From Bdellovibrionota bacterium (GTDB lineage: Bacteria; Bdellovibrionota_C; UBA2361; OMII01), in NCBI GenBank assembly GCA_044360195.1, contig JBIKKT010000005.1, positions 5,744-69,743 of the forward strand: 64,000 bases of DNA. Reading direction: 5' to 3'. The translations under genes were made by a program, and so were the position numbers. Under the pieces are notes generated by a model, which did not search any database, was not told where the DNA came from, and saw nothing but the letters and a program-made list of their open reading frames with translations. This document shows, in pieces, positions 8,236-34,650 of the stretch (its first letter is position 1; the number at the start of each line of letters is the position of its first letter).

Positions 8236-9786
8236 CTATGGCCTTCCGCCACCTCCACCAGGGGGCTTACTCGGGCCACCCATACCAAATGAAATCTCTG
8301 GCGGAGAATCTCCGAGATGGATGCCGTCCGCTTTTAGCTGCTCATCAAAATTACTTGCCCACGAGTCAATACGCCACGTCGGTCGCACACCCTGCTTAAT
8401 GAGGGTAAACATCGGACGCACCTGTATTATCCCTTCAACGAAGTGCCCTACCTCTATGATTTCAGCTATGCGCGGCTTTCCGGTTGATTTCTCTCGTATC
8501 AACCACACCACACAGTCCACTGCGAGGGCTATCTGTTGTCTTATGATATCGATTGCCACGGATTTTTGGGCCCGGCCCAGTAAGCTCTCGAGTCGAACGA
8601 GTGTTTCACGTGCATTTCTCGCATGCACCGTTGACATTCCAACATGCCCCGTTTGTGCGCTCTCCAGAAATGCTTCCGCTGCAAAGGGAGTTCGCATCTC
8701 TCCTAGAATGACTCGCGTCGGCGTCATTCGAAGCGTTGTCTTAATATGCTCTTGTAACGTTACCTCTCCCACACCCTCTGCATTTGGCGATCTTGATACG
8801 AGAGAACGAAAGTAGGGGTGCTGAAAATTAAGTTCTGGCGTGTCCTCTACAGCCACTATGGACTCGCTCTCTCCAAACTGTGTCGCCAAGCACTTAATCA
8901 AGGTAGTCTTGCCGGTTCCGGTCTCGCCAGCCACCATCATCGTGGCGAGGCCGCTGCGTATCAGACACGCCAAGTAGTTTACAATCAGAGGTGGTGCGAC
9001 CTGAAAAGTAACTATGTTCTCAAGACTGACCTCCGCCATGCGCGGCACACGGATACATAGAAGCGGGCCCCGTTGCCCACACACACTCTCATGCACTGCA
9101 CAGAGACGTATGCCGTTAGGGAAAGAAGCATCAACGGTGTGCTGTTGAGTTGTAAGTGATTTGCCGAGTCGCATTAATAGTCGGTCGATGAAAGTCACGT
9201 AGGATTGGTGATTAGGCCACGACAACCCTGTTGTCTCACTGACCTTGCCGCGCTGTAGCACTACGGTCTGATAGTCGTAGACATGGATATCAGTCACCTC
9301 TTTGTTATCAACAAGGGGTTGAAGCACACCCCACCCCATCAGATCTTTCTGCAGGTGAATGATAATGTGAGCACGCTCGATGTCGTCGAGCACTTCGCCA
9401 CGCTTCTTGAGAACCCTATCTATCGCTTGCGCTATGACCGCTTCAGTCTTTGCCTGATTAGTCATCTGTTGCTGCAAAGTGAAATCGCCGCCTAACTCTC
9501 GTCGAGTCTCCCGCATAACTGTAGCAGCCACAGGTGAGATGTTTTCTTGCAGCGCTGTTGAAGTGCTTTTGCTGCGAGGTGCGGCCCCACCATCGGTAGC
9601 TCCCCCAGGAGCTCGCGGCGCCTGCTTCACTAATGGGGGTGATGACTGGGGAGAGTTCGGCAGCGTTTTTGAAGCTTCCTCACTTTGCGCCTTTTCAGAC
9701 TTTTCCACGGCACCTCGAGCATGGCTCGAGCGCGTCGAGAACATGCCAATCAGTCCATCCTTATCATCCTTCCCAGAACCCGCCAT
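8236..9786 (-). CDS. cpaF: CpaF/TadA-type secretion ATPase (VirB11/FlaI superfamily) with a disordered N-terminal extension
   Basis: Walker A GETGTGKTT. Asp box VAVEDTPEL. His box MSTVHARNA. Roughly 100-aa S/P/A/K-rich N-terminus and a Gly/Pro-rich C-terminal tail. Confidence 0.85.
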   Translation of the reverse strand: MAGSGKDDKDGLIGMFSTRSSHARGAVEKSEKAQSEEASKTLPNSPQSSPPLVKQAPRAPGGATDGGAAPRSKSTSTALQENISPVAATVMRETRRELGGDFTLQQQMTNQAKTEAVIAQAIDRVLKKRGEVLDDIERAHIIIHLQKDLMGWGVLQPLVDNKEVTDIHVYDYQTVVLQRGKVSETTGLSWPNHQSYVTFIDRLLMRLGKSLTTQQHTVDASFPNGIRLCAVHESVCGQRGPLLCIRVPRMAEVSLENIVTFQVAPPLIVNYLACLIRSGLATMMVAGETGTGKTTLIKCLATQFGESESIVAVEDTPELNFQHPYFRSLVSRSPNAEGVGEVTLQEHIKTTLRMTPTRVILGEMRTPFAAEAFLESAQTGHVGMSTVHARNARETLVRLESLLGRAQKSVAIDIIRQQIALAVDCVVWLIREKSTGKPRIAEIIEVGHFVEGIIQVRPMFTLIKQGVRPTWRIDSWASNFDEQLKADGIHLGDSPPEISFGMGGPSKPPGGGGGRP

Positions 9787-9923
9787 AATCCCCTTGCAGC
9801 AACGTGCGCCTACTTGAGTAAAAGCACCCAGTGTTGTTGTCGGCTAAATATGCGCGTAGGATTAGTAGAATGCGTCCAAAACGAGGTTATGACAGCTGGG
9901 ATTACTCCCAGGCAGATTCCGAC

Positions 9924-10775
9924 TTACTTGTCGGTTAACTTGGACTCGGGTACCAACTTCCCGTTTATAATAACAAAGCTCTTCCCATCGACCTTTACGG
10001 TACCCTCTGAAGGTATGGCCTGAGGTGTTTGAACAGGCAAAACACCCAATACGGACTCAATCGTTACCGTACGATTATCTGAAGTCTCTACGGGGTCATC
10101 ATCACCCCTCAGGGCCAAGCTAAGGGCGCCTGAACTTGAGGCTAGCTGAAGTTTGGCGGATTCTTCGGTAGTTACCATGATGGTCACTGTTGAGGCTGGG
10201 GGGCCCAACACGTCAGAACTCGTACTGCGCCCAGCGGAGAGAACCTTTGCATTTTGAATGATGACGGTAATTGCAGGCCTGTTGTTTAGGGCTGATGCCA
10301 GCAAAACATCAACTTTAGCACCCGCACGAGCCCAGCCTTCCACACTGGTTGTCGCATCAACTGCAAAAGATACCGCTCTATACCCCTCAGATATGTTGGC
10401 TTGAATCTGGTTAACCGGTGGCTTGAAAGTTACAAAGTCGCCTGAAAGCGGCTGACGAGCGGCAACATATGAGGCTGCGTATGCCCCTTTTATCTCATCA
10501 AAGGTATATATCGGATTGGGTACCAGTTGTGCCTCAGGCATGCTTTCCCTGCGAAACATACTGACATCCAGAACAGAACCGGCCTCTATCTCGCGAACAG
10601 TAACTAGCACCTCTGCTAAACCTGGGGACACCGGTGCAGCGACTTTAGGTTGCTCAGTGGTCTGATTAATGACTAGTGTGTAATAAAAGTAGCCGGCGAC
10701 TATTGATGCCGAGAGGAGGAGGAGACCCCCTAAAAGAATGATGGAGGACGAGCCAGACTCTAAATTGCTTTTCAC
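9924..10775 (-). CDS. cpaB: Flp pilus assembly protein CpaB/RcpC-like (SAF-domain periplasmic protein)
   Basis: N-terminal TM segment (IILLGGLLLLSASIVAGYFYY) then a CpaB/SAF-like region (VLVTVREIEAGSVLDVSMF). Start is GTG at 10775. Confidence 0.65.
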   Translation of the reverse strand: MKSNLESGSSSIILLGGLLLLSASIVAGYFYYTLVINQTTEQPKVAAPVSPGLAEVLVTVREIEAGSVLDVSMFRRESMPEAQLVPNPIYTFDEIKGAYAASYVAARQPLSGDFVTFKPPVNQIQANISEGYRAVSFAVDATTSVEGWARAGAKVDVLLASALNNRPAITVIIQNAKVLSAGRSTSSDVLGPPASTVTIMVTTEESAKLQLASSSGALSLALRGDDDPVETSDNRTVTIESVLGVLPVQTPQAIPSEGTVKVDGKSFVIINGKLVPESKLTDK

Positions 10776-10835
10776 ACTACTTTAGTCCGGGCGTTACGAC
10801 GTATGCATTTATCTCCAGAACTATGCCTGGGTATT

Positions 10836-10866
10836 ATATCCGCGACCTAAGTAAGGTCGCGGATAT
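10836..10866. terminator. perfect 12-bp-stem hairpin (ATATCCGCGACC-TAAGTAA-GGTCGCGGATAT) between the flp pilin gene and cpaB; possible attenuator or mRNA-stabilising stem-loop
   Basis: Palindrome read directly from the sequence. A U6 tract precedes the stem on the minus-strand transcript and none follows, so it is not a canonical intrinsic terminator. Confidence 0.35.
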
Positions 10867-10885
10867 AAAAAACAACTACTGCGGA

Positions 10886-11044
10886 TTACCCACCAATCTG
10901 GGCATTAACCGTACTGAACTGCGACGACACGCTTTGTCCGAGGATACGAACAGCCGCAATTGCGACAACAGCAATTAGAGCCACCAACAAAGCGTATTCC
11001 ACGAGCGAAGCTCCTCGCTCAGACTTTTTCTCAATGGATTTCAT
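10886..11044 (-). CDS. flp: Flp/Fap-family pilin (52 aa), absent from the ORF track
   Basis: Manual translation gives MKSIEKKSERGASLVEYALLVALIAVVAIAAVRILGQSVSSQFSTVNAQIGG. This is the classic Flp motif (G/ASLVEY cleavage site followed by a hydrophobic helix). GGAGA lies 9 nt upstream of the ATG. Confidence 0.8.
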   Translation of the reverse strand: MKSIEKKSERGASLVEYALLVALIAVVAIAAVRILGQSVSSQFSTVNAQIGG

Positions 11045-11263
11045 TATCTTCATTCTCCTGAAATAAACCGGCGTATCGCACAGGCGCTACTACCGCGCCA
11101 CAAAAGACGCAGCGTCTGGATAATTAAACACTAAACAGACGAGTCAGTGACACAGCGCAATATGATACCAGGTCAAAGTTAGATGCAAGTGTATATTTTT
11201 TGTTCTCAGATGCTTTATACAGGAGGGGTAAATCACACCCGACCAAAAGAGCCCCAAAAAAAG

Positions 11264-12508
11264 CTACCTCTTACCAAACAGCTTTCTAAATAAGCCAACA
11301 GACCCCTCGACCCCACTTCCAACAGCAGTGCTCTTATCGGAAGGTGCCACCTGCAATATCCCCAAACCTTTGGCAATCTGTTCAAGGGCGTTGCGAGTTC
11401 CCTTTTGCCCCATACTGTAAAGTGTGCGCCCACTTCCTGGCCACACAGCCGCTTTGGGGTCATTTGGAATCGATGGCAATCTCCACGGCGCATCCCCTAG
11501 CTGGTGTGCGGGTTCTAGGTCAGCGGCTATCTGATCAACACTTGCAAAGGCTCCGGAATACGGATTTACGAGAAAGCAGAGCTTATCGGTTGAGCCAATC
11601 AGCGATTTAATGAAAGAGAGGTAGAGATCCACTGCGGTGAGCCCCAATACCGTATCATCAATGACGAGTAGAACCACATCAGCGCTGCGAACAAGCCCTC
11701 CAACCGCCGGCCCCATCCTGCCGCCACTATCGATGAGAACAACATCAAACAAAACTCGCGCGATATCGACTACACGCTGAGCTATGCCCATACCATCTGC
11801 ATGACACACCAGATCCATAGACTCGGCGAATCGATCAGGCGGCATGAGAACTGAGACGTCACTACTAATCGGAATCAGCGCATCACGAAGAGACTCGCGA
11901 GATATATCTCGACTTCCATTCACCCATGAACTAACAACTCGAGCTTCCTCTCCATTTACAGTAAGAGAGCGACTAAGGTCGCGCGTCTCAACATCCAGAT
12001 CCCACAACATGGTGCGACGATTAAAAACGCTACACAACTCACCTAAAGCAGCAGTGATTGAAGTCGCACCCACACCTCCCTTGGCGTGCGCAACTAGTAC
12101 AACCTTGCCCTCGTGAGTGCGCCCCTCCTTTCGAAAATCGGAATGAATCGCAACCAGCTCCTGGAGAAAATCAAGGGGACTAGCGCTATCAGGAAAAACC
12201 TTCCGCACTCCAGCCTGGTGCGCTGCGCGGAACGCCCCGCCACCGTAGGCGCTGTCGGTGACAAACATGATGATCTGCACCCAAGGCGCAATCATGTGTG
12301 TTTGCCGAGCAATACTCGCCCCCTTATCGACAAGCCCAGAGCCTAGAACAACCACATCAGCTTCAGAAACCCGTTCAGCATAATCCACGTCGTTAACGAG
12401 CTTTACCTTAAGGTCAAGCACTTCCATATCGCTGCGTCCGAATGAATCGATACGCTTGGCGCAGAAGGCCTGAGCTTCGGCACTACTGTCGACAATAAGA
12501 AGTTTCAT
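11264..12508 (-). CDS. cpaE: CpaE/TadZ-like pilus assembly protein (degenerate receiver domain plus ParA/MinD-type ATPase)
   Basis: N-terminal receiver-like MKLLIVDSS. Deviant Walker A AKGGVGATS. Lies directly upstream of flp. Confidence 0.75.
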   Translation of the reverse strand: MKLLIVDSSAEAQAFCAKRIDSFGRSDMEVLDLKVKLVNDVDYAERVSEADVVVLGSGLVDKGASIARQTHMIAPWVQIIMFVTDSAYGGGAFRAAHQAGVRKVFPDSASPLDFLQELVAIHSDFRKEGRTHEGKVVLVAHAKGGVGATSITAALGELCSVFNRRTMLWDLDVETRDLSRSLTVNGEEARVVSSWVNGSRDISRESLRDALIPISSDVSVLMPPDRFAESMDLVCHADGMGIAQRVVDIARVLFDVVLIDSGGRMGPAVGGLVRSADVVLLVIDDTVLGLTAVDLYLSFIKSLIGSTDKLCFLVNPYSGAFASVDQIAADLEPAHQLGDAPWRLPSIPNDPKAAVWPGSGRTLYSMGQKGTRNALEQIAKGLGILQVAPSDKSTAVGSGVEGSVGLFRKLFGKR

Positions 12509-12518
12509 CCCCTACTCC

Positions 12519-13994
12519 CTAAAAACTAATATTTGCCAGCAGCGATGGCGCGACCATTCGCAAGAAAAACACACCGCACGCTATCCCCACCATCGCTGCC
12601 ACACAGAGCGCAACAACATCACTAAACTCCAATCGTTCACGGTCTTTCTCGAGATATCTCTTCGAGAGCGTTCGCATACGCACAGACTCTCGCCCTGGGC
12701 TAGGAACAACCGTCTCGCCTTCCCAGTCCTCCATGACTAGATTTTCCCTGCGAGACGAAACCGCACTGTCCGACCTTGAGAATCCGGTCGCAACAGGGTA
12801 GCCGCCTCCGTCGACCAGTCCGCCCCGATCGTCTACTTCTTGCTCTTCTTCCTCAGCGAAGTCAACAAAACCAGAACTAAGAACCGCTGTTCGATTTCCT
12901 CTATCCTGCGACTCCGACATAGCATTCAAGCCATCGATAGAGTTGAGACTGGGGTTGGAAGACGGAGCAGACGCGCTCAACGTGGGCTCGCGCTCCCGTT
13001 TGGCCATCGATTTTGTCAGACCTATGGACTTAGCGTCCTGTCCCTTTCCCTGAGAGGCTTCTTGAGACGAATCGGCCATGGATGGGCCGACAAATTTCTC
13101 AGCAACTCCGACCGCCGAAGTCGGTGCCGCCCCAAGCTTGTAGCCATACTTGGAAGCTATTTTCTGCAGCTCTTCAACTATTTCAAGACCGGATTGGTAG
13201 CGATGCTCCGGGTCGCGTGCCATAAGCTTAAGAACGCACTCGTCTAGCTCCTTTGGGCACTCAGGACGGTAGGTGCTCGGCGGATCCGGATCAGTCTTAA
13301 GGCGCTTGGTCATCGTCGCGTAAACGCTCTCTCCCCTAAATGGAGCTTCGCCACTGATCATCTCATAGGCCAGAATTCCCAGAGCATATATATCCGCTCG
13401 CCAGTCCACCTGGGACTTCAACATATACTCCGGTGCAACGTATTCGACTGTTCCAACTACACCGCCGTGTTCTGTCAACTTTGGACCGTGACGATTCCGG
13501 GCAATTCCGAAATCAGCTATCTTGACGTTCCCGTCTTTCGTCAGCAGAACATTTTCCGGCTTCATGTCTCGGTGCACAATTCCGGCTTCGTGAATCGCTT
13601 GCAAACCGGCTGCTATCTGACTCATCAATCGCACTATCTCTGAGAGAGGGATTCGTTCTGAGCCACTTAGTCGCTCTGCCAGATCGCCGCCGCCAACAAA
13701 CTCCATAGCATATGCAACCAGGTCTCCGTCTCTGAGGAGGTCGTATGCCCGGACTACGTTAGGATGGGAAACTTCGTAGGACGCCAAGACTTCGTTTCGG
13801 AAACGAGCAGAAGCAACCTTATCGGCAGCAACCTCAGGGAATAGCACCTTAACTGCCACCATCTGGCCCATCAGCTCGCGATTGCGACACGCGTACACCA
13901 GACCCATACTGCCCGAGCCAAGGCACTTCACGACCTCGTACTTACCGCCTATTACGGTGCCGGGTTGAAGACTTATGAGGTGCTCGTCAGTCAT
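12519..13994 (-). CDS. Hanks-type Ser/Thr protein kinase with a C-terminal transmembrane anchor
   Basis: GSGSMGLVY, VAVKVL, HRDMKPENVLL, DFGIA and GTVEYVAPE are all intact. S/P-rich linker. C-terminal TM VVALCVAAMVGIACGVFFL. Confidence 0.9.
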   Translation of the reverse strand: MTDEHLISLQPGTVIGGKYEVVKCLGSGSMGLVYACRNRELMGQMVAVKVLFPEVAADKVASARFRNEVLASYEVSHPNVVRAYDLLRDGDLVAYAMEFVGGGDLAERLSGSERIPLSEIVRLMSQIAAGLQAIHEAGIVHRDMKPENVLLTKDGNVKIADFGIARNRHGPKLTEHGGVVGTVEYVAPEYMLKSQVDWRADIYALGILAYEMISGEAPFRGESVYATMTKRLKTDPDPPSTYRPECPKELDECVLKLMARDPEHRYQSGLEIVEELQKIASKYGYKLGAAPTSAVGVAEKFVGPSMADSSQEASQGKGQDAKSIGLTKSMAKREREPTLSASAPSSNPSLNSIDGLNAMSESQDRGNRTAVLSSGFVDFAEEEEQEVDDRGGLVDGGGYPVATGFSRSDSAVSSRRENLVMEDWEGETVVPSPGRESVRMRTLSKRYLEKDRERLEFSDVVALCVAAMVGIACGVFFLRMVAPSLLANISF

Positions 13995-14026
13995 GATTAC
14001 TGGTTACCTATGCTACCGTGGCGCTC

Positions 14027-15136
14027 TTACTCAGTAGGTGGCTTTATTAAACATACATAGAAGGAGCGCTCGCCAAAGGAGACGATATCTCCATGACTAA
14101 GCGTACCCTTCTCTCCGGAAAGAAATTCCTCCTCGTTCGATCCGGCATGACGAATCTTGGTGCCGTTCTCAGAGAGCTGGTCGAGCACTTGAATGGTGCC
14201 ACCACTTCCAACCCGCATAATCGCATGCATTGGAGAGACCGAGGGATGAGCTACTACGAGACAGTTACCGCTGGCATCGAACTCACACGTTACCATCAGT
14301 CTCCCGGTTCTTAGCTCAACGTAATCCCCTTTTGGGTTGTTATCGTAGGAGAGCAAAAAGCCAACTAAGGTTGAATCTGAAGTCCACGCAATTGAGTCTC
14401 TTCTATCAACCTCCTCGATCTGTTCGGGCTCGGTTGGAACCACAAAGGTCTCCAAATACTCCTCCTGTGACATCGGCTTAAACTCGCGCGTCGGTCGCTG
14501 TCGTTGAGGCGCAGGCTGAGGCTGTTCTTCTTGCGAGTGCAATGGAGCCAACCGAGGCAGTGGCTTAGGACGCAAAATTCGAGCAGGCCCTGAACTATGA
14601 TCCTGTGAGGCTTCTACCTCCGACTCAGCATGGTCCTGTTTGAGATAGACATAACCATCATTATCATCAGCAGCTGGACTCACTGACTGCTCAACAGCCC
14701 TGGAGGTTTCAGGGGTCGATTCACGCTCAGGCATCGAGGGGCGTAGTCGAGGAGCTGGTTCATACTTCAATCTTTCCTCCTCCTGATAAGGCGCGGGTTT
14801 AGGATTCGGGACTTCACGGCGCGTTTCAAGCGGTGGTGATACCTCGTAGTGCTCCTCACCTGCACTCTCAGCTGAAAGATCCGTTGAAGTCACAGATGAT
14901 GCATCAAACTCAGGGCTCGTCCATCCTTCATCATCACCAGAAGATTCGTGCACAAAACCCCCAGAACGTTCGGGAGTAGGCCGTTGAAACTCACCGCCAA
15001 GCCGAGCACGAACCTGTCCGGTTAACTCAGAGGTCATCATCACCGTGCGATTGCGAGCTCGGGTGGTTGTATCGCCAACAACCGCACTCTCTGCTTTCGC
15101 TGCTCCCTGTCCTATCCTCTTTTCATCTTCCGTCAT
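14027..15136 (-). CDS. FHA-domain protein with a long Pro/Glu/Ser-rich disordered N-terminal region
   Basis: C-terminal FHA signature (LSENGTKI ... LSHGDIVSFGERSF). About 250 aa of low-complexity sequence upstream of it. Confidence 0.75.
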   Translation of the reverse strand: MTEDEKRIGQGAAKAESAVVGDTTTRARNRTVMMTSELTGQVRARLGGEFQRPTPERSGGFVHESSGDDEGWTSPEFDASSVTSTDLSAESAGEEHYEVSPPLETRREVPNPKPAPYQEEERLKYEPAPRLRPSMPERESTPETSRAVEQSVSPAADDNDGYVYLKQDHAESEVEASQDHSSGPARILRPKPLPRLAPLHSQEEQPQPAPQRQRPTREFKPMSQEEYLETFVVPTEPEQIEEVDRRDSIAWTSDSTLVGFLLSYDNNPKGDYVELRTGRLMVTCEFDASGNCLVVAHPSVSPMHAIMRVGSGGTIQVLDQLSENGTKIRHAGSNEEEFLSGEKGTLSHGDIVSFGERSFYVCLIKPPTE

Positions 15137-15151
15137 ACGTCCCCATGCCCC

Positions 15152-16114
15152 TTAAAAAAAATGCTTTGCGAGAAACCCTGCTGTAGTTACCACTGCGACA
15201 AATCCGGCCACCACCAAAGAGAGAACCAGGTGCTTTCCTAGACCGCGCCCCACACTTTCAGCTCGTACTTTTGGCGGTTTTGCAACGACAGACCCTGGTG
15301 CGCGTTTAACGGCAGGCTTGCGAGTCTTTTGCGCCGCTGGGGGAGGCGCTACTCGTAGCTGACCGGCCAACGGAATGATAGAGACTGTGATATTGTCGTA
15401 CCCTCCGCGGGCTTTAGCGAGCTCAACCAACTTGACACACGCCGACTGCGGCGAATGCGTGCACACGATCTGCGAGATCTCCATTTCAGCCACCAAACTG
15501 TAGAGACCGTCAGAGCAGAGGAGCACTCTATCATTCACATCTCCTGGCTTTGTGCCCCATACCCATAGCTTTCGAACGTCAACTTCAAGACCAGGTTCAG
15601 CACCGATGCAGCGGGTCAGGATATGTGCATCGGGATGCGCCAACGCTTCCTCTGGCCCAATCTCTCCACGCTCAACGAGTTGCTGCACGAGGGTATGATC
15701 AACCGTAAGCTGCTGAATTGCTCCATCTCGAATAAGATAAGCTCTAGAATCTCCGACATTGGCTACCGCAACCTCTGAGCCACTAAAGAGCAACGCAACA
15801 GCGGTGGTCCCCATAGATGCAAATGCTTGGTTTTGTCGCCGCAGAACTATCACGCGATTAGCTTCTATCAGTGCGTTACGCAGAGCCACCTCCGGAGGCA
15901 TTGCTTGCTGCTTTGACAGGTCTCGCTTTACGGCATCTATTACCAACTGAGCCGCAAGCTCTCCGCCAGTCGCGCCCCCCATCCCGTCACACAGGATCCA
16001 GGCGACGCCCAGAGCACATTCAATGACAGCGTAGCGATCTTCATTGAGATCTCTTTCGCAACCCGTATCGGTTATGGCAGCTGGAATGGTGGCGTCTTCG
16101 TGCTCCGAATTCAT
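15152..16114 (-). CDS. PP2C-family Ser/Thr protein phosphatase with a C-terminal TM anchor
   Basis: TDTGCERDLNEDRY, ILCDGMGG, GTTAVALL, VANVGDSRAYL, LLCSDGL. C-terminal TM LVLSLVVAGFVAVVTTAGFL. The track ORF extends to 16366. The preferred start is ATG 16114 (MNSEHED...), which puts the first PP2C motif about 17 aa from the N-terminus. Confidence 0.8.
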   Translation of the reverse strand: MNSEHEDATIPAAITDTGCERDLNEDRYAVIECALGVAWILCDGMGGATGGELAAQLVIDAVKRDLSKQQAMPPEVALRNALIEANRVIVLRRQNQAFASMGTTAVALLFSGSEVAVANVGDSRAYLIRDGAIQQLTVDHTLVQQLVERGEIGPEEALAHPDAHILTRCIGAEPGLEVDVRKLWVWGTKPGDVNDRVLLCSDGLYSLVAEMEISQIVCTHSPQSACVKLVELAKARGGYDNITVSIIPLAGQLRVAPPPAAQKTRKPAVKRAPGSVVAKPPKVRAESVGRGLGKHLVLSLVVAGFVAVVTTAGFLAKHFF

Positions 16115-17825: not shown

Positions 17826-18980
17826 CTATGCAAGCCGTTTGAGAAGCACGAGGGTAACATCGTCCTTCAGCATACGCCCCTCTCGAAAGGTGTCAATCGC
17901 ATCCACTACGTCTGTTACAAGCTGCGCTGCACCGGCATCCGGACCACTCCTGCGAAGCACCTCAACGAGGCGGTCGGTACCAAAGACCTGCATCGCTCGA
18001 TTTTGGACCTCCGTAACCCCATCGGTCACAAGCAGCACCACATCCCCTAGCTCAAGATGCTCCCGCTGCACTTCATAGCTTGCCTGATCCACAAAACCGA
18101 TCGGAAACCCCTCACCTGTTACCAGTTTGCACTCTCCCGAACGGCGCACGAGCAGTGCGGGCGGGTGACCAGCTCGACACCATTGAAGCTCACCACTCTC
18201 GGGAAAATATCGACACAAGCCCATCGTAACGAATGTAGCAGAGGGGAGCTGTGGGCCAAGGAGTGCAGTCGTTTTTTCCACCTGCTTCGCCACATCATGG
18301 TCGTGGGCAGCAACCGTAGCGAGCTTAGTCATACTACTGATAAAGGCTGCCGAGAGGCCATGTCCTGAAACGTCAGCGATACAAAGCGTAAGTGCGCCGT
18401 CTGCCTCCTGAGAAGCGAAATACCAATCGCCACCAACCTGCTCTAAAGGGTTGTACGAGGCCGCAAGATCAAAGCGGTCATCTCGAGGTAAAGTTTCTGG
18501 CAGTAGGCCTTGCTGAATAGCGCGAGCTTGTTCGAGCTCACGCCGAAACCGTTCATTATGATCCCGGAGAGCGAGATTGATTTCTGCCAAAGTCGCAGTG
18601 GATTCATCTGCACCGGCCAACTTACGTAACCGCAAGGTGGTCGCTATAGTGCCAACTAATCGACCGACTGAATACGGAGCTGCCACATCCTGAATTCCAC
18701 CGAGCGTACTAAGAGAATCACCTTCTGAAGCATCTTCGTCTGATGAAACGGCGATCCGAATTATCGGAACCTCTCGAGTTTCCCTTTGCGACCTTAGAAA
18801 GGTGCACACTTCCGCCGCATCGGGAACGACACGGCCGTCTATCAAGATGATATCGCTCCCAGCGGCTACAACCTCAGCCAGGAACTCAGACGATGTTGGT
18901 TTAATCACGGAGTAGCCAAGCTTCTGCAGGAGCGCAGAGAGCTGTGCGTCATCAGAGCCGAGAAGGAAGATTGAGTTCAT
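17826..18980 (-). CDS. response-regulator receiver domain fused to a PP2C (SpoIIE/RsbU-family) phosphatase
   Basis: N-terminal receiver-like IFLLGSDD...IILIDG. PP2C/SpoIIE motifs GGDWYFA, ADVSGHGLSAAF and LLVTDGVTE. The preferred start is ATG 18980 (MNSIFLL); the track ORF uses TTG 19031. Confidence 0.75.
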   Translation of the reverse strand: MNSIFLLGSDDAQLSALLQKLGYSVIKPTSSEFLAEVVAAGSDIILIDGRVVPDAAEVCTFLRSQRETREVPIIRIAVSSDEDASEGDSLSTLGGIQDVAAPYSVGRLVGTIATTLRLRKLAGADESTATLAEINLALRDHNERFRRELEQARAIQQGLLPETLPRDDRFDLAASYNPLEQVGGDWYFASQEADGALTLCIADVSGHGLSAAFISSMTKLATVAAHDHDVAKQVEKTTALLGPQLPSATFVTMGLCRYFPESGELQWCRAGHPPALLVRRSGECKLVTGEGFPIGFVDQASYEVQREHLELGDVVLLVTDGVTEVQNRAMQVFGTDRLVEVLRRSGPDAGAAQLVTDVVDAIDTFREGRMLKDDVTLVLLKRLA

Positions 18981-19041
18981 TTGTCTTAGGTATCGGCCAT
19001 CTACCCGCAAGTCCTGAGGAAAACTAGGCAAAACCCCTTGC

Positions 19042-28087: not shown

Positions 28088-29491
28088 TTAATACGCGTTG
28101 CGGTTTTTAAACCCATTGACCAGCGTTAAGCACAGTATCTTCAGGTCGAGCAACAGCGACCAATTTTCGATATAATAGAGGTCGTACTCGATGCGCTTAT
28201 CAATCGAGGTATCCCCCCGCCAGCCGTGAACCTGTGCCCATCCCGTAATACCAGCTGGCACCTTATGGCGGAGCATGTAACGCGGTACTCGACGCCTAAA
28301 CTCCTCGATAAACACCGGTCGCTCCGGCCGTGGACCCACGATAGACATGTCACCCCTTAAAACGTTCAAGAGTTGAGGGAGCTCGTCTAGGCTAGTACCT
28401 CGAAGAAACCGTCCGAATGGCGTGACGCGGTCATCACCGGGCTTAGTCCAGCCAGGCCCCTGAGCCTCCGCATCTGTATACATCGTACGAAACTTGACGA
28501 TTGAGAACTTTGACCCGTCGAAGCTAACTCGCTCTTGCTTGAACAGGACTGGCCCCCGAGACGTCAGCTTAACAATGGCGGCGATCAGCGCCATAAGCGG
28601 CAAGAAGAGAACGAGCAGCACTGCAGCCAAAATGAGATCAACAACACGCTTAGTAATTAAATTAATTCCGTCTAACGGACACTCTTGGAGCGAGATAACT
28701 GGGAGACCCTCAAACTCCTCAATCGCCCCTCCAATACTGGTAAACTGATACAGGTCAGGAATGATCTTGATATCAACCAAGGAATCCTTGAGTTGAGCCA
28801 TAAGATCCGGCAACAGTTGGTGGTCCTCAAGAGGAAGCGCTACAATGATCTGATCAATATCTGTGCGATTGATAAATTTTCCTAGCTCTGAAAAACGGCC
28901 GACAATAGGAACGCCTCCGGGCCCCCACCCGCGCTCGCCATCTCTGGACAAACACCCGACAAGTTGAATACCAAGCTCTTGATGCAACCTCACGCGACTT
29001 ACGATATCCGATGCGACTCTTCCGGTTCCCACTATCAACATATAGCGCAAATTGTACCCTTTGCGCCGGAGCTCGCGCAGTAGAAACCGCAGGAAAGAGC
29101 GTTGACTTACCGTAAGAATGGTCGACAGCGCCCAGAAATAAACGAACACCAGACGTGAGAACTGCACGCTCTTCTCGCGGAAGAGGTAGGTGATAGAGAT
29201 AAGAACTACTATAGAGAGCGCATTCGAGTTTACAAGCATCCAGAACTCTCGCCCACGCCGCGCTCCGCGCATTGGTCGATACAGACCCATGCGCCGGAAC
29301 ACGAAGGCCCAGATGATCCAGATAAACACCAACATCGAGACGTAGTGAATAAATTCGGGAACGCCCTTTTCTACCGGGACGAAATCGGTCATGAAGCGTA
29401 GCCAATAGGAGATTATCCACGCTACGGTAACCATGACTAGATCAGCCACGGTAAAGAGGTATTCAAACAATTGACGCTTCTGCTTCAGCAT
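28088..29491 (-). CDS. polyprenyl-phosphate glycosyl-1-phosphate transferase (bacterial sugar transferase / WbaP-type priming enzyme)
   Basis: N-terminal TM helices. C-terminal sugar-transferase signature SIVGPRPERP. Confidence 0.8.
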   Translation of the reverse strand: MLKQKRQLFEYLFTVADLVMVTVAWIISYWLRFMTDFVPVEKGVPEFIHYVSMLVFIWIIWAFVFRRMGLYRPMRGARRGREFWMLVNSNALSIVVLISITYLFREKSVQFSRLVFVYFWALSTILTVSQRSFLRFLLRELRRKGYNLRYMLIVGTGRVASDIVSRVRLHQELGIQLVGCLSRDGERGWGPGGVPIVGRFSELGKFINRTDIDQIIVALPLEDHQLLPDLMAQLKDSLVDIKIIPDLYQFTSIGGAIEEFEGLPVISLQECPLDGINLITKRVVDLILAAVLLVLFLPLMALIAAIVKLTSRGPVLFKQERVSFDGSKFSIVKFRTMYTDAEAQGPGWTKPGDDRVTPFGRFLRGTSLDELPQLLNVLRGDMSIVGPRPERPVFIEEFRRRVPRYMLRHKVPAGITGWAQVHGWRGDTSIDKRIEYDLYYIENWSLLLDLKILCLTLVNGFKNRNAY

Positions 29492-30726
29492 AGTCCCGTC
29501 TTTCTCTCAGTATGCACGTCTAAGCTCGATTGAGCTACGTCCCCAGCTAACTCTGCGCTTAGCCCGCCGTTGATGCCGACGTGACGAGCAAATGATGCCC
29601 ACGCGCCGAAGAACGTTCGATAGCTAAAACAAGCAGCACGATTTTTAGCCACCATCGGGTCGAAAGCACTTTCGACCTCACAGAAGTACTTAACGGCTTG
29701 AGCAAGAGCAGCAGGGTCCCCACAGGCGCTCTTAGGTATGAATACACCGCTTGCGCGCTGAGGTACAAGCGACTTCCCACTCCACGGTCGATATCCGAGC
29801 ACAGATTCGCCTACTCCGCCTGCATCAATCCCTATCACCGGCCGCCCTGAGGAAAGACATTCAACTGGAACGATACCGAAGTCCTCAATGCCTGGGAAAA
29901 TAAGCGCTCGACACCGGCGATAACACTCCCACAACACCGCATCCTCCACCCTGCCGAGAAACCGAATGGTAGGGCCTGCCAACTGACGCAATCGCTCCAG
30001 CTCTGGTCCACCACCAACCACCCACAGCGGCAGTTGAAGCTCATTAAAAGCACGTATAGCAACATCGATACGCTTATACGGCACGAGAGCTCCTGCGCAG
30101 AGAAAGAAGGGCTCGTTCACATCAGCAAACAGGGATTGCTGCGTAACATTCAATGACAGATCAAGATCCGTGCGCATTCTAACGGGCGGTGGAATTACAA
30201 CCGACTCTCGTCCGTAGAATTTACGTATGCGCGCCGAAACAAAACTACTGATTGCAACAAAGTGGGTAACGCGGGACGAACCCCTTGCATCCCACCACCG
30301 CAAAACCTGAAGAATTGGCTGCGCAGCATAAAAAGCGATGCCGCGAAAATACGAGCGCGCCTGATCCCAAATATATCGCATCGGAGTGAAGCAATAGCAT
30401 ATGTGAGGCACTCCCTTAGGAACGGTGACATTTTTTGCCGCCGCATGACTAAGCGAGATAACGAGGTCATATCCCTCCAAACGAAGCGAAGATACTGCTG
30501 CTGGATACAACCAGAGGAACGCCCGATACACCCTAGCAATGCCCGGTATAGAACGCAAAAACGACACCTGCTTTACCCGCGCATCGATCTCAGGAGTAGT
30601 TGAGCCAGGAACGTGAACCAACGTGAAGATATCAGCCTGGGGATAGATCTGAAGAAAAGCCTCTAGGCACCGCTCGCCACCGCGCAAGCCGGTCAACCAG
30701 TCGTGTACGATGGCAACTTTGGTCAT
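29485..30726 (-). CDS. glycosyltransferase family 4 (GT-B)
   Basis: VAIVHDWLTGLRGGERCLE N-terminus. GT4-like C-terminal domain. Confidence 0.7.
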   Translation of the reverse strand: MTKVAIVHDWLTGLRGGERCLEAFLQIYPQADIFTLVHVPGSTTPEIDARVKQVSFLRSIPGIARVYRAFLWLYPAAVSSLRLEGYDLVISLSHAAAKNVTVPKGVPHICYCFTPMRYIWDQARSYFRGIAFYAAQPILQVLRWWDARGSSRVTHFVAISSFVSARIRKFYGRESVVIPPPVRMRTDLDLSLNVTQQSLFADVNEPFFLCAGALVPYKRIDVAIRAFNELQLPLWVVGGGPELERLRQLAGPTIRFLGRVEDAVLWECYRRCRALIFPGIEDFGIVPVECLSSGRPVIGIDAGGVGESVLGYRPWSGKSLVPQRASGVFIPKSACGDPAALAQAVKYFCEVESAFDPMVAKNRAACFSYRTFFGAWASFARHVGINGGLSAELAGDVAQSSLDVHTERKTGLC

Positions 30727-32860: not shown

Positions 32861-33217
32861 TCGTCGACAGTAACTCTACCACAAGCGGGTAGCTAAACGA
32901 AGGGCAGCACCTGCCCCAGTACAGGGCCCCCACCCCCCGGCCTCCCAAATCCTCCAACGCACCTCAGTCATACTTTAACTTACTTAAACCTCAGCGCCTT
33001 AACACCCTGGTACCATTCAACAACCCCTCCACTTTCAGCCTGAAACCTTTCAACCTAAAACCTTCTCCTTCTGCAGGCTACTCACACCTTCCTCATCGCA
33101 CGCAACTCTTCTTTCCAATTTGCGATTTAAGAAAGCTATAGGACATGCCCCCTGCAACCCCCCAAGGTTCCCGGAGCATTCTGAGCTTTTGAGAGTGGTC
33201 CAGAGGGCAAGACCTGC

Positions 33218-34297: not shown

Positions 34298-34554
34298 ATC
34301 AGGGACCGAATTTGTGACAGATTGCTAAGAATGCCCAACGAGGCGAAAAAGAGACAAAAAAGAAGAGAGCCCCGCACCTCTCAATAAGATCGCATGCGCT
34401 CAGGCGACTGAAATCATGCATAGGCATCCCCTGGCGCTGCTGAAAAGCGCCCCAAAGCTCGACGGGAGCGCACAATAAAGCAGACGAACACAGCCACCCA
34501 CCAACTAGAAACGGCCCTAACCTGCCAACCTATCTATCGACCATAGCACACCCA

Positions 34555-34650
34555 ACACTGGTGCATTGGAGCACCAAACAACACCACACCAACACCAAAC
34601 ACCAAACACCAACACCAAAGCACCAAAAAAAACACTGGTGCATCGGAGCA
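34555..34650. repeat. 19-bp direct repeats (ACACTGGTGCAT[T/C]GGAGCA) bracketing an imperfect (ACACCAA)n microsatellite-like tract
   Basis: Copies at 34555-34573 and 34632-34650 differ at one position. The intervening 58 bp is built from CACCAA/ACACCAA units and ends in an A8 run. Confidence 0.7.

What the first reader, a model, noticed from the sequence alone, without database searches (positions are those of the whole stretch)
12519..16114. Tail-anchored Ser/Thr kinase, FHA protein and tail-anchored PP2C phosphatase directly upstream of the Tad-like genes
This is the classic phospho-threonine signalling triad (kinase, FHA reader, PP2C eraser). Both kinase and phosphatase have their single TM helix at the extreme C-terminus, an uncommon topology that puts both catalytic domains in the cytoplasm. 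The FHA protein carries about 250 aa of acidic, Pro-rich disorder. The CpaF ATPase downstream has an S/T-rich disordered N-terminal extension that could be the phospho-substrate. This resembles post-translational gating of T6SS firing by PpkA/PppA/Fha1.
Basis: inference. Interest (0 to 1): 0.55.

Follow-up and report, generated by a model that had tools for sequence, protein, structure and literature searches.

The report
Phospho-threonine switch on a Tad-like machine
A membrane-anchored kinase, phosphatase and phospho-threonine reader head a gene cluster, conserved across dozens of uncultured freshwater Bdellovibrionota species, that joins a pilus-type motor to a lone type III secretion gate protein, and they probably switch that machine on and off.

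Summary
On the minus strand lie a PP2C phosphatase (15152-16114), an FHA protein (14027-15136) and a Hanks Ser/Thr kinase (12519-13994). The kinase stops 10 nt before a TadZ-Flp-CpaB-CpaF-TadB-TadC set. Catalytic and phospho-threonine-binding residues are intact. Every kinase and phosphatase orthologue found ends in one C-terminal membrane helix with no sensor domain.

The window comes from an uncultured Bdellovibrionota genome. In 47 of 52 related species with enough flanking sequence, the triad sits in the same place. A second, canonical Tad locus in the same genomes lacks it.

Two threonines are conserved inside otherwise variable, disordered sequence. T31 of the FHA protein (RARNRTVML) is invariant. 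T18 of the CpaF N-terminus (LFSTR) is absent from the triad-less paralogues.

It carries a lone SctV-like FHIPEP protein and a pseudokinase-TM-HEAT protein, but no secretin or prepilin peptidase.

My reading is a T6SS-like threonine-phosphorylation switch recruited to a Tad-like/SctV machine. It is an analogue of that pathway, not a member. Substrates and function are inferred only. I rate it a new variant of a known kind, with interest about 0.6.

The parts
15152..16114 (-). PP2C Ser/Thr phosphatase, 320 aa from the ATG at 16114 (the longest ORF extends to a TTG at 16366). Catalytic domain, then a basic Pro-rich linker, then a C-terminal TM anchor.
   Evidence: Pfam PP2C 1.2e-17 and PP2C_2 2e-11. 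NCBIfam Stp1/IreP 221.9 bits against a cutoff of 230. The metal-binding motifs NED, DGMGG, GDSR, SDGL and GGxDN are conserved in 48 orthologues. The start is supported by the orthologue alignment and an AGAGG motif upstream.
15173..15229 (-). C-terminal TM helix of the phosphatase, followed by a 6-aa tail.
   Evidence: The Kyte-Doolittle 19-residue window scores 2.35. A single C-terminal TM with a 2-25 aa tail is present in all 49 orthologues. The linker before it has net charge +10, which puts the catalytic domain in the cytoplasm.
14027..15136 (-). FHA adaptor protein, 369 aa. It has a conserved N-terminal peptide, a variable acidic/Pro-rich disordered linker and a C-terminal FHA domain.
   Evidence: Pfam FHA 3.7e-07. 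The family is restricted to this clade and is annotated only as 'FHA domain-containing' or hypothetical. AlphaFold pLDDT is 87-95 for residues 250-369 and 44-67 for residues 1-245. Orthologue length ranges from 188 to 486 aa because the linker varies.
15035..15061 (-). Invariant N-terminal motif R26-A-R-N-R-T31-V-M-M of the FHA protein (consensus RARNRTVML). It is the top candidate phospho-acceptor and FHA ligand, with a hydrophobic residue at pT+3.
   Evidence: R26, N29 and T31 are invariant in 48 locus orthologues, in 31 aligned orthologues and in 70 database homologues.
14030..14371 (-). FHA domain, residues about 256-369, with an intact phospho-threonine pocket (G278, R279, S301, H304).
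   Evidence: These columns are invariant in A2 and A5. The domain is a high-confidence beta-sandwich.
12519..13994 (-). Hanks-type Ser/Thr kinase, 491 aa. Kinase domain 19-267, then an S/T-rich juxtamembrane linker of about 170 aa, then a C-terminal TM anchor. There is no sensor domain.
   Evidence: Pfam Pkinase 1.8e-54. The best NCBIfam hit is the Stk1/PknB family at 297 bits, below the cutoff of 450, and there is no PASTA domain. The Gly-loop, beta3 Lys, HRD, DFG and APE motifs are conserved in 49 orthologues.
13449..13475 (-). Activation loop with invariant T174 and T182. These are likely autophosphorylation sites.
   Evidence: T174 and T182 are conserved in 100% of 49 orthologues. The role is inferred by analogy with PknB-type kinases, from established knowledge.
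12561..12617 (-). C-terminal TM helix of the kinase, followed by a 13-aa tail.
   Evidence: The Kyte-Doolittle score is 2.74. A single TM with a 4-57 aa tail is present in all 50 orthologues.
11264..12508 (-). TadZ/CpaE-like ParA/MinD ATPase with an N-terminal receiver-like domain. It starts 10 nt after the kinase stop.
   Evidence: Pfam AAA_31, CbiA and ParA hits, and an NCBIfam CpaE-homologue hit. Orthologues are 54-91% identical.
10886..11053 (-). Flp pilin, 55 aa.
   Evidence: Pfam Flp_Fap 2.2e-10. The processing-type motif G/ASLVEYALL is visible in the sequence.
9924..10775 (-). CpaB/RcpC.
   Evidence: Pfam RcpC 1.3e-17. NCBIfam TIGR03177 scores 124.8 bits against a cutoff of 71.
8236..9786 (-). 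CpaF/TadA secretion ATPase, 516 aa, with a disordered S/T-rich N-terminal extension of about 100 aa. It has no FHA domain.
   Evidence: Pfam T2SSE 2.4e-31 over residues 239-431 only. TadA-family NCBIfam hit. N-terminal composition.
9730..9753 (-). CpaF N-terminal motif L12-x-G-(L/M)-F16-S17-T18-R19. It is the second candidate phospho-site or docking peptide.
   Evidence: F16, S17 and R19 are present in 72/72 orthologues and T18 in 65/72. In the six triad-less paralogous CpaF proteins, T18 is present in 0/6 and R19 in 0/6. Together with FHA T31, T18 is one of the only two Thr conserved at 85% or more inside poorly conserved, probably disordered sequence in the module.
7249..8232 (-). TadB platform protein.
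   Evidence: Pfam T2SSF 4.6e-14.
6321..7241 (-). TadC platform protein.
   Evidence: Pfam T2SSF 2.6e-11.
4191..6299 (-). Lone SctV-like FHIPEP protein, 702 aa. It starts 21 nt after TadC.
   Evidence: Pfam FHIPEP 2e-178, full length. NCBIfam SctV scores 579 (cutoff 692), above FlhA at 524 (cutoff 772). The best PDB match is YscV 7alw at 380 bits, against FlhA at 320. The gene is present after TadC in 55/58 loci, including very divergent ones. The TM domain is 62% identical at the median and the cytoplasmic domain 38%.
1805..4165 (-). Receptor-like pseudokinase, 786 aa. A degenerate Hanks kinase domain, then one TM helix, then an ARM/HEAT-like alpha-solenoid of about 450 aa.
   Evidence: The orthologue profile matches StkP, PknA and PknB in the PDB at 4e-25. 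The beta3 Lys, HRD and DFG motifs are degenerate in the consensus. One TM is conserved. AlphaFold pLDDT is 76-93 for residues 440-786, all helical. Foldseek gives only generic importin, beta-catenin and adaptin matches. The gene is present in 42/47 loci. Precomputed Pkinase and HEAT_2 hits are on record for orthologues.

Best explanation
The three genes form a reversible threonine-phosphorylation switch tethered to the cytoplasmic face of the inner membrane. They are co-transcribed with, and most likely gate, the machine encoded immediately downstream.

That machine is a secretin-less Tad-like inner-membrane assembly (TadZ, Flp, CpaB, CpaF, TadB, TadC), joined to a lone SctV-like FHIPEP protein and a pseudokinase-TM-HEAT protein.

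What is shown:
- All three enzymes or readers keep their functional residues.
- Kinase and phosphatase are C-terminally anchored with no sensor domain in every orthologue.
- The triad is linked to this Tad copy in about 90% of relatives, and is absent from the second, canonical Tad locus of the same genomes.

What is inferred:
1. Because the kinase cannot sense anything outside the cell by itself, it is activated by a partner. The best candidate is the operon's own pseudokinase, acting either as a periplasmic sensor or as a machine scaffold.
2. The kinase then autophosphorylates on the invariant activation-loop T174/T182.
3. It phosphorylates the invariant T31 of the FHA adaptor (RARNRT31VML, hydrophobic at +3), and possibly T18 in the disordered CpaF N-terminus (LFST18R).
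4. The FHA domain binds one of these phospho-threonines. Binding is either in cis (a GarA-type switch) or in trans (a T6SS TssL/Fha-type recruitment). This changes whether CpaF/TadZ engage the TadB/C platform.
5. The anchored PP2C resets the system.
For: - Domains and intact motifs.
- C-terminal TM in 50/50 kinase and 49/49 phosphatase orthologues.
- Triad present in 47/52 loci with at least 7 kb upstream, across CpaF identities of 59-92%.
- The upstream flank changes between subclades (a cob(I)alamin adenosyltransferase gene in 23 loci; unrelated 748-aa and 152-aa ORFs in 18 loci) while the triad-TadZ junction persists.
- Gaps of 10-32 nt from the PP2C gene to TadZ.
- Six MAGs carry a second Tad locus with TadE and TadG-like minor pilins that lacks the triad, FHIPEP and the pseudokinase.
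- T31 of the FHA protein is invariant in 48, 31 and 70 sequences.
- CpaF T18 and R19 are specific to the triad-linked copy.
- These two are the only conserved Thr in poorly conserved, probably disordered surroundings.
- The pseudokinase fold is established.
- Independent gene calls with precomputed Pfam show the same module on other contigs.
- Precedents: Fha binding to pThr of TssL activates the T6SS (PMC3953482). PknB phosphorylation of the MviN pseudokinase recruits FhaA, and the EssB/YukC pseudokinase scaffolds the T7SSb (PMC12599244).
Against: - There is no experimental or phosphoproteomic evidence. All organisms are uncultured MAGs.
- Gene order downstream is also conserved into housekeeping genes (a TlpA-like thioredoxin in 40 loci, tig in 25, clpP in 13). 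Part of the synteny may therefore be simple inheritance.
- Two orthologous loci (L065, L074) lack the triad at this position yet keep the CpaF FSTR motif.
- AlphaFold did not dock the T31 peptide onto the FHA domain; pLDDT there is 45-61.
- The residue at +3 of CpaF T18 is not hydrophobic.
- Kinase and phosphatase are most similar to the general Stk1/Stp1 pair.
- Whether other Hanks kinases exist in the genome is unknown.
Confidence: 0.55

Rival explanations
1. The CpaF N-terminal extension is the main substrate. The FHA protein binds phospho-CpaF and thereby licenses ATPase docking, copying the T6SS TssL/Fha or Fha1 logic.
For: The CpaF N-terminus is disordered and S/T-rich. The LFSTR motif is conserved in 65-72 of 72 orthologues and its Thr and Arg are missing in all six triad-less paralogues. 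Precedent: pThr14 in the N-terminal tail of TssL is bound by Fha (PMC3953482).
Against: T18 is less conserved (90%) than FHA T31 (100%). The invariant residue in the motif is S17, which FHA domains do not read. The +3 position is S/T/A rather than the hydrophobic residue most FHA domains prefer. L065 and L074 keep FSTR without a neighbouring triad.
Confidence: 0.25
2. The triad is a general housekeeping PknB/PstP/FhaA-type regulator of the envelope, division or metabolism. It is merely inherited next to the Tad genes and does not control them.
For: The best family matches are the general Stk1 and Stp1 families. The FHA protein has the FhaA/GarA layout. Downstream synteny with tig and clpP shows that gene order in this clade is conservative in general. 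L065 and L074 show that the triad can be separated from the Tad genes.
Against: The triad-TadZ junction survives a change of the upstream flank. The gaps are 10-32 nt on the same strand. The canonical second Tad locus has no triad. The FHA family is found only with this module in 80 loci and 2 extra contigs. A CpaF motif co-varies with the module.
Confidence: 0.2
3. The FHA protein is a phospho-independent structural adaptor, like the cytoplasmic FHA-fold domain of SctD/YscD or the FHA domains of EssC. It links the SctV-like protein to the Tad platform. The kinase and phosphatase act elsewhere.
For: Some family members also hit Pfam Yop-YscD_cpl. A lone SctV-like gene is in the module. Divergent relatives carry a further two-FHA, YscD_cpl-like protein downstream.
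Against: The canonical pThr-binding Arg, Ser and His (R279, S301, H304) are invariant. From established knowledge of the SctD and EssC FHA-like domains, phospho-independent FHA folds have usually lost these residues. The protein has no TM segment. The gene is sandwiched between an active kinase and an active phosphatase in 47 loci.
Confidence: 0.07

Closest known systems
T6SS threonine phosphorylation pathway (PpkA kinase, PppA PP2C, Fha1/Fha; PMC3953482, PMC5995506, PMC6082577)
   Same: It has a Hanks kinase, a PP2C phosphatase and an FHA protein encoded with an envelope-spanning nanomachine. There, a pThr in a short disordered N-terminal tail of a machine component (TssL T14) or in Fha itself is read by the FHA domain to trigger assembly. 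The logic proposed here is the same.
   Different: PpkA has a periplasmic domain after its TM, whereas this kinase has only a 13-aa tail. PppA is soluble, whereas this PP2C is membrane-anchored. In Fha1 the FHA domain is N-terminal, whereas here it is C-terminal behind a disordered linker. There are no T6SS genes in the 64 kb; the partner machine is Tad-like plus SctV-like. This is not a member of that family.
Kil Tad-like prey-killing system of Myxococcus xanthus and its cooperation with a needle-less T3SS* (PMC8460266, PMC12428579)
   Same: It is a Tad-derived machine in a predatory lineage of former 'delta-proteobacteria', with FHA-domain proteins in the cluster. The authors already proposed a T6SS-like phospho-signalling cascade. 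Kil works together with a T3SS-derived apparatus, and here a T3SS gate protein is in the same operon.
   Different: The KilF ATPase carries its own N-terminal FHA domain, whereas this CpaF does not. Kil clusters list a secretin, a prepilin peptidase and minor pilins; none is found here. No kinase or PP2C is mentioned in the main text of PMC8460266, and its supplementary table lists only a 'Protein kinase G'-like match for MXAN_4648. Here the complete triad is present. The Myxococcus T3SS* is a multi-gene apparatus encoded elsewhere, whereas here only SctV is present. Kil/T3SS* co-occurrence was thought to be restricted to Cystobacterineae (PMC12428579). Orthology to Kil was not tested.
Actinobacterial PknB-PstP-FhaA module with the MviN pseudokinase (reviewed in PMC12599244; PMC11898655)
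   Same: It is an operon with a membrane Hanks kinase, a membrane-anchored PP2C and an FHA protein built as an N-terminal region, a long disordered linker and a C-terminal FHA domain. A membrane pseudokinase is phosphorylated and then bound by the FHA protein. The kinase and PP2C here score best against the Stk1 and Stp1 families.
   Different: There are no PASTA or other extracellular domains. The module is not linked to rodA, pbpA or cell-wall genes. The organisms are diderm Bdellovibrionota. The pseudokinase here is a stand-alone TM protein with a HEAT/ARM solenoid, not a MurJ fusion.
EssB/YukC pseudokinase and the FHA-bearing EssC of the T7SSb (PMC12599244)
   Same: It is a monotopic membrane protein with a cytoplasmic pseudokinase domain that scaffolds a secretion machine which also uses FHA domains. 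This is a precedent for the 786-aa protein being structural rather than sensory.
   Different: It belongs to a different machine and phylum. No active kinase/phosphatase pair is involved there.
Canonical Tad/Flp pilus (Aggregatibacter tad, Caulobacter cpa) and the Bdellovibrio bacteriovorus Tad system (bioRxiv 10.64898/2026.07.08.737194)
   Same: Flp pilin, TadZ/CpaE, CpaB/RcpC, CpaF/TadA, TadB and TadC are all present. B. bacteriovorus tad genes also lie near FHA, TPR, PilZ and histidine-kinase genes, and that organism lacks a dedicated TadV.
   Different: There is no secretin, prepilin peptidase or TadE/F/G in the operon or the window. TadZ is not fused to TadA as it is in B. bacteriovorus. 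FHIPEP, the pseudokinase and a Hanks kinase/PP2C pair are added.

Membership tests
T6SS threonine phosphorylation pathway (PpkA/PppA/Fha1) | Catalytically competent Hanks-type Ser/Thr kinase | tested here: met
   Pkinase 1.8e-54. The Gly-loop, Lys, HRD, DFG and APE motifs are conserved in 49 orthologues.
T6SS threonine phosphorylation pathway (PpkA/PppA/Fha1) | Kinase carries a periplasmic sensor domain after its TM helix | tested here: not met
   Only 13 residues follow the TM, and 4-57 in all 50 orthologues.
T6SS threonine phosphorylation pathway (PpkA/PppA/Fha1) | Cognate PP2C phosphatase | tested here: met
   PP2C 1.2e-17 and Stp1-family 221.9 bits. The metal-binding motifs are conserved. 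Unlike PppA, it is membrane-anchored.
T6SS threonine phosphorylation pathway (PpkA/PppA/Fha1) | FHA protein with an intact pThr pocket | tested here: met
   R279, S301 and H304 are invariant. The domain is C-terminal, unlike in Fha1.
T6SS threonine phosphorylation pathway (PpkA/PppA/Fha1) | Encoded within a T6SS core gene cluster | tested here: not met
   There are no T6SS families among the scanned ORFs of the 64-kb window. The neighbours are Tad-like and FHIPEP genes.
T6SS threonine phosphorylation pathway (PpkA/PppA/Fha1) | Demonstrated phosphorylation of a machine component or of the FHA protein | not testable with these tools
   This needs kinase assays or phosphoproteomics.
Canonical Tad/Flp pilus | Flp pilin, TadA/CpaF ATPase, TadB and TadC platform, TadZ/CpaE, RcpC/CpaB | tested here: met
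   Flp_Fap 2.2e-10. T2SSE, two T2SSF, AAA_31 and RcpC hits. TIGR03177 is above its cutoff.
Canonical Tad/Flp pilus | Outer-membrane secretin RcpA/CpaC | tested here: not met
   There is no Secretin hit in any scanned ORF of the window. CpaB and CpaF are only about 140 nt apart. It may be encoded elsewhere in the genome.
Canonical Tad/Flp pilus | Dedicated prepilin peptidase (TadV/CpaA) and minor pilins TadE/F/G | tested here: not met
   None is present in the operon or window. TadE and TadG-like genes are present only in the paralogous locus of the same MAGs.
Kil Tad-like predation system (M. xanthus) | Tad ATPase fused to an N-terminal FHA domain (KilF) | tested here: not met
   CpaF shows only T2SSE over residues 239-431. 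The N-terminus is disordered with no FHA hit.
Kil Tad-like predation system (M. xanthus) | Several FHA-domain proteins in the cluster | tested here: inconclusive
   There is one FHA protein here. A second, two-FHA protein occurs downstream only in divergent relatives.
Kil Tad-like predation system (M. xanthus) | Phylogenetic placement of CpaF/TadB/TadC/CpaB inside the Kil clade | not tested
   The reference Kil sequences could not be retrieved in usable form.
Kil Tad-like predation system (M. xanthus) | Role in contact-dependent prey killing | not testable with these tools
   The organisms are uncultured MAGs and their lifestyle is unknown.
Actinobacterial PknB/PstP/FhaA module | PASTA-bearing Stk1/PknB kinase | tested here: not met
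   NF033483 scores 297 bits against a cutoff of 450. The match covers the kinase domain only, and there is no extracellular region.
Actinobacterial PknB/PstP/FhaA module | Stp1/PstP-type PP2C | tested here: inconclusive
   NF033484 scores 221.9 bits, just under the cutoff of 230.
Actinobacterial PknB/PstP/FhaA module | Linkage to rodA/pbpA cell-wall genes | tested here: not met
   The neighbours are Tad-like genes.
Type III secretion / flagellar export apparatus (for the FHIPEP gene) | Full-length FHIPEP (SctV/FlhA) protein | tested here: met
   PF00771 2e-178, covering positions 2-655 of 657.
Type III secretion / flagellar export apparatus (for the FHIPEP gene) | Reaches the equivalog score for SctV or FlhA | tested here: not met
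   SctV scores 579 against 692, and FlhA scores 524 against 772.
Type III secretion / flagellar export apparatus (for the FHIPEP gene) | Accompanied by SctRSTU/FliPQR-FlhB and the ATPase SctN/FliI | tested here: not met
   None is present in the 64-kb window or between module genes in the 80 loci. The rest of the genome could not be examined.

The most novel reading that the evidence does not exclude
The module encodes a hybrid nanomachine that has not been described before. A secretin-less Tad inner-membrane motor (TadZ, CpaF, TadB/C, CpaB, Flp) would be physically coupled to a lone SctV-type gate or ion-channel protein and a pseudokinase scaffold or sensor, and fired by a dedicated, sensor-less, membrane-tethered kinase/FHA/PP2C switch. 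It would be a single-operon counterpart of the Myxococcus Kil plus T3SS* prey-killing pair. It would also supply the kinase that is missing from current models of how Tad-like predation machines are triggered.
Probability: 0.25. Interest if true: 0.85.

Novelty: new variant of a known kind. Interest (0 to 1): 0.6.

Why it matters
How Tad-like machines of predatory bacteria (Kil in Myxococcus, Tad in Bdellovibrio) are switched on at the right place and time is an open question. FHA proteins have been noted in those clusters and a T6SS-like cascade was proposed, but no kinase or phosphatase has been assigned.

This clade offers a compact, conserved operon in which all the parts lie next to the machine: writer, reader, eraser, a pseudokinase, and two concrete candidate phospho-threonines (FHA T31 and CpaF T18). 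The hypothesis can therefore be tested directly with recombinant proteins.

The conserved insertion of a single SctV-like gene into a Tad operon is unexpected. It hints at a mechanistic link between type IV filament and type III export components beyond Myxococcus.

Tried and rejected
1. I suspected that the 1.4-1.6 kb gap between CpaB and CpaF in the paralogous Tad loci encoded the missing secretin. It encodes TadE and TadG-like minor pilins instead.

2. My first tblastn count gave 45/52 loci with the triad, with L033 and L064 'partial'. ORF inspection showed both have all three genes, so the count is 47/52.

3. I tried to place CpaF relative to KilF and Bd0111 using the eLife supermatrix supplement. 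Species labels could not be found in it, so I abandoned this.

4. A profile search for the 786-aa protein family was swamped by ordinary kinases and returned only 6 true members. The AlphaFold alignment was therefore shallow, and the pseudokinase domain was modelled at low confidence.

5. Foldseek on that model gave only generic ARM/HEAT solenoids, none at E <= 0.001.

6. I ran AlphaFold on the FHA protein to see whether the T31 peptide docks on the FHA domain. The peptide stayed at low confidence, which is uninformative.

7. The promoter and terminator scan did not exceed the shuffled expectation (11 versus 10.6, and 22 versus 15.9). I do not use it as evidence.

8. I considered that FHIPEP is simply the flagellar FlhA. 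This is unlikely, though not excluded. It scores higher as SctV, falls below both equivalog cutoffs, diverges faster than CpaF, and no flagellar genes are nearby.

9. A direct sequence search of the FHA protein against the PDB found nothing.

10. Literature searches for tad+CpaF+PP2C+FHA found no paper.

Full report
**What is at the coordinates.** All genes of interest are on the minus strand.
- The ORF at 12519-13994 (491 aa) is a Hanks-type kinase. Pfam Pkinase scores 1.8e-54 over residues 19-267.
- The ORF at 14027-15136 (369 aa) has a C-terminal FHA domain, Pfam 3.7e-07 over residues 289-355.
- The ORF ending at 15152 is a PP2C phosphatase. Pfam PP2C scores 1.2e-17 and NCBIfam Stp1/IreP scores 221.9 bits.
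- The longest phosphatase ORF starts at a TTG at 16366. Orthologue conservation begins about 10 residues after the ATG at 16114, and an AGAGG motif precedes that ATG.
- Gaps are 15 nt (PP2C to FHA), 32 nt (FHA to kinase) and 10 nt (kinase to the next gene).

**The genes that follow on the same strand**:
- a TadZ/CpaE-like ATPase (11264-12508);
- a 55-aa Flp pilin (10886-11053, Pfam Flp_Fap 2.2e-10);
- CpaB/RcpC (9924-10775);
- CpaF/TadA (8236-9786);
- TadB (7249-8232);
- TadC (6321-7241).

**Topology and composition claims.**
- The kinase has a single strongly hydrophobic helix at residues 460-478 with 13 residues after it. The phosphatase has one at residues 296-314 of 320 with 6 residues after it.
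- The phosphatase linker before the helix is very basic (net +10), consistent with a cytoplasmic catalytic domain.
- The FHA protein's residues 46-255 are 12.9% Pro and 21% Asp+Glu, with net charge -22.
- AlphaFold, run with a 70-sequence alignment, gives pLDDT 44-67 for residues 1-245 and 87-95 for the FHA beta-sandwich.
- The first 100 residues of CpaF are 21% Ser+Thr and 15% hydrophobic.

**Whose genome it is, and whether relatives keep the triad.**
- The exact FHA protein occurs on several freshwater metagenome contigs.
- A scan of one genome per species with the CpaF protein returned 80 loci. Nearly all are uncultured Bdellovibrionota, 'Oligoflexia' or 'Deltaproteobacteria' MAGs from lakes and other waters, with CpaF 57-92% identical.
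- I ran tblastn of all window proteins against these loci, then inspected ORFs. The order PP2C, FHA, kinase, TadZ, Flp, CpaB, CpaF, TadB, TadC, FHIPEP, 786-aa protein recurs on one strand.
- Of 52 loci with at least 7 kb upstream of CpaF, 47 have all three triad genes.
- Three of the five exceptions (L075, L079, L080) are a second, paralogous Tad locus present in the same MAGs as an orthologous locus. Its TadZ is about 42% identical. It has TadE and TadG-like minor pilins between CpaB and CpaF, and it has no FHIPEP and no 786-aa protein.
- Only L065 and L074 are orthologous loci without the triad at that position.
- The upstream flank differs between subclades. A cob(I)alamin adenosyltransferase gene is upstream in 23 loci, and unrelated 748-aa and 152-aa ORFs in 18 loci. 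The triad-TadZ junction persists across this change.
- One caveat applies. Downstream of the module, a TlpA-like thioredoxin, trigger factor and ClpP are also syntenic in 40, 25 and 13 loci. Gene order in this clade is conservative, so adjacency alone is not proof of coupling.

**Are the three proteins functional?** Across 48-49 orthologues the following are conserved:
- the kinase Gly-loop, beta3 Lys, HRD, DFG and APE motifs;
- the PP2C metal-binding motifs (NED, DGMGG, GDSR, SDGL, GGxDN).

The FHA pocket residues G278, R279, S301 and H304 are invariant in 31 locus orthologues and in 70 database homologues. A single C-terminal TM helix with only a short tail is found in 50/50 kinase orthologues (tail 4-57 aa) and 49/49 phosphatase orthologues (tail 2-25 aa). 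The sensor-less, anchored topology is thus a conserved property and not an assembly accident.

**Candidate phospho-sites.** I looked for threonines conserved at 85% or more that sit in poorly conserved, probably disordered surroundings, in all module proteins (plus).
- One site is T31 of the FHA protein, inside an invariant N-terminal peptide with consensus RARNRTVML-TPEITGQVRARL. R26, N29 and T31 are invariant in 48, 31 and 70 sequences, and the +3 residue is L, M or I. This gives the protein a GarA/FhaA-like layout: an N-terminal Thr motif, a variable linker (total length 188-486 aa) and a C-terminal FHA domain.
- The other site is T18 of CpaF, in the motif L-x-G-L-F-S-T-R. F16, S17 and R19 are present in 72/72 orthologues and T18 in 65/72. 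The six paralogous, triad-less CpaF proteins have neither T18 nor R19.
- The kinase activation-loop threonines T174 and T182 are invariant.
- AlphaFold did not dock the T31 peptide. This neither supports nor refutes a cis interaction, because the model is unphosphorylated.

**What else belongs to the module.**
- Twenty-one nucleotides after TadC lies a full-length FHIPEP protein (4191-6299, Pfam 2e-178).
- It scores higher as injectisome SctV (579 bits) than as flagellar FlhA (524 bits), but it is below both curated cutoffs. Its best solved relative is Yersinia YscV, at 380 bits against 320 for FlhA.
- It follows TadC in 55 of 58 loci. Even in the most divergent loci, at 24% identity, the protein is still a full-length FHIPEP.
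- Its membrane domain is better conserved (median 62% identity) than its cytoplasmic ring domain (38%).
- No other type III or flagellar gene, no secretin, no prepilin peptidase and no TadE/F/G gene occurs in the operon or among the scanned ORFs of the 64-kb window.
- Twenty-five nucleotides further on lies a 786-aa protein (1805-4165) with no Pfam hit of its own.
- A profile of its orthologues matches StkP, PknA and PknB kinase domains in the PDB at 4e-25. The beta3 Lys is replaced (V-x-L-W), HRD is degenerate (CGD in the consensus, IGT in the window), and DFG is lost. It is a pseudokinase.
- A single TM helix follows, then about 450 residues that AlphaFold models confidently (pLDDT 76-93) as an all-helical ARM/HEAT-like solenoid. 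Foldseek gives only generic structural neighbours.
- Independent gene calls on other contigs list the same module, with Pkinase and HEAT_2 hits on this protein.

**Mechanism.**
- Shown: a complete and competent writer/reader/eraser set, tethered to the membrane without any sensor, tightly packed with one particular Tad-like gene set and conserved with it.
- Inferred: the kinase needs a partner for activation, and the operon's own receptor-like pseudokinase is the obvious candidate.
- The MviN pseudokinase, which is phosphorylated by PknB and then bound by FhaA, and the T7SSb scaffold pseudokinase EssB/YukC are precedents for both a signalling role and a structural role (PMC12599244).
- The kinase would phosphorylate FHA T31 and/or CpaF T18. 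The FHA domain would read one of them, in cis or in trans, and so control whether CpaF/TadZ engage the TadB/C platform or the SctV-like ring. The anchored PP2C would reset the switch.
- This is the logic of the T6SS threonine phosphorylation pathway, in which Fha binds pThr14 of TssL (PMC3953482).
- I put 0.55 on the general statement that the triad gates this machine. I put much less on any individual substrate.

**Rival explanations.**
- The triad may be a general PknB/PstP/FhaA-type regulator that is only syntenic (0.2).
- The FHA protein may be a phospho-independent structural adaptor of the SctD type (0.07). This is disfavoured by the invariant pThr pocket.

**Comparison with what is known.**
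- This is not a member of the T6SS pathway. The kinase has no periplasmic domain, the FHA layout is different and there are no T6SS genes.
- It is a Tad-family system at the level of its inner-membrane parts, but it lacks the secretin, peptidase and minor pilins locally.
- It resembles the Myxococcus Kil system in lineage, in being FHA-associated and in being connected with type III components.
- Seef et al. already suggested a T6SS-like FHA signalling cascade for Kil (PMC8460266). A 2025 review calls FHA proteins promising candidates and states that Kil/T3SS* co-occurrence seems restricted to Cystobacterineae (PMC12428579).
- KilF carries its own FHA domain, and this CpaF does not.
- A 2026 preprint on B. 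bacteriovorus notes FHA, TPR, PilZ and histidine-kinase genes near tad genes, a TadZ-TadA fusion, and PilD doing the prepilin processing. None of these matches this module.
- No paper in the searchable library combines tad, CpaF, PP2C and FHA.

**Verdict.**
- The finding is real and conserved.
- What appears new is the complete kinase/FHA/PP2C set attached to a Tad-like operon, the conserved sensor-less anchoring, the two concrete candidate phospho-threonines, and the embedding of a lone SctV-like protein and a pseudokinase in the same module.
- I classify it as a new variant of a known kind, with interest 0.6.

Noticed in passing
window 4191-6299 (-): A lone SctV-like FHIPEP gene follows TadC directly, with no other type III or flagellar gene in 64 kb. 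It is kept after TadC in 55/58 related loci, even where it has diverged to 24% identity. Its membrane domain is far better conserved than its cytoplasmic domain.
   Followed up: partly
window 1805-4165 (-): A 786-aa protein with no Pfam hit turns out to be a degenerate Hanks kinase (pseudokinase), then one TM helix, then an ARM/HEAT-like solenoid of about 450 aa. It is conserved as the last gene of the module in 42/47 loci.
   Followed up: partly
window 1-64000; operon 1805-16114: No secretin, prepilin peptidase or TadE/F/G minor pilins were found in the operon or among the scanned ORFs of the window. The Tad-like set is an inner-membrane subset only.
   Followed up: partly
loci L075-L080 (e.g. 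L080:6364-11509, L075:5252-10387): The same MAGs carry a second, more canonical Tad locus (TadZ, CpaB, TadE, TadG-like, CpaF, TadB, TadC). It lacks the triad, FHIPEP and the pseudokinase, and its CpaF lacks the T18/R19 motif.
   Followed up: yes
window 17826-19031 (-): A response-regulator receiver fused to a SpoIIE/PP2C-type phosphatase (RssB/SiaA-like) lies about 1.5 kb upstream of the triad. It is syntenic only in the closer relatives. It is a second phosphatase-based signalling protein nearby.
   Followed up: no
L074:17597-18958, also L063, L069, L070, L073, L081, L085 downstream of the module: In the most divergent relatives, a protein of about 453 aa with two FHA/YscD-cytoplasmic-like domains lies about 2.5 kb beyond the pseudokinase position. 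In some of these loci the pseudokinase itself is missing.
   Followed up: partly
window 1267-1830 (-) and 1-1232 (-): A TlpA-like thioredoxin lipoprotein lies immediately after the pseudokinase gene and is conserved there in 40 loci. Trigger factor follows, and ClpP follows in relatives. It is unclear whether the thioredoxin belongs to the module.
   Followed up: partly
window 61244-62827 (+) and 62881-63840 (-): A LysM + GH108 + peptidoglycan-binding protein lies next to a subtilase. These are possible secreted cell-wall-degrading or proteolytic enzymes, as expected for a predatory lifestyle.
   Followed up: no
window 28088-40139: There is a large polysaccharide cluster with a sugar transferase, five GT4/GT2 glycosyltransferases and a 707-aa ORF with no Pfam hit. 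It is interrupted by a cNMP-binding DUF1003 protein on the opposite strand.
   Followed up: no
L006 and L032 (same MAG, JBIIHY01): One MAG contains two orthologous-type CpaF genes (92% and 75% identical to the window's) on different contigs. This could be strain mixing in the bin or a genuine duplication.
   Followed up: no
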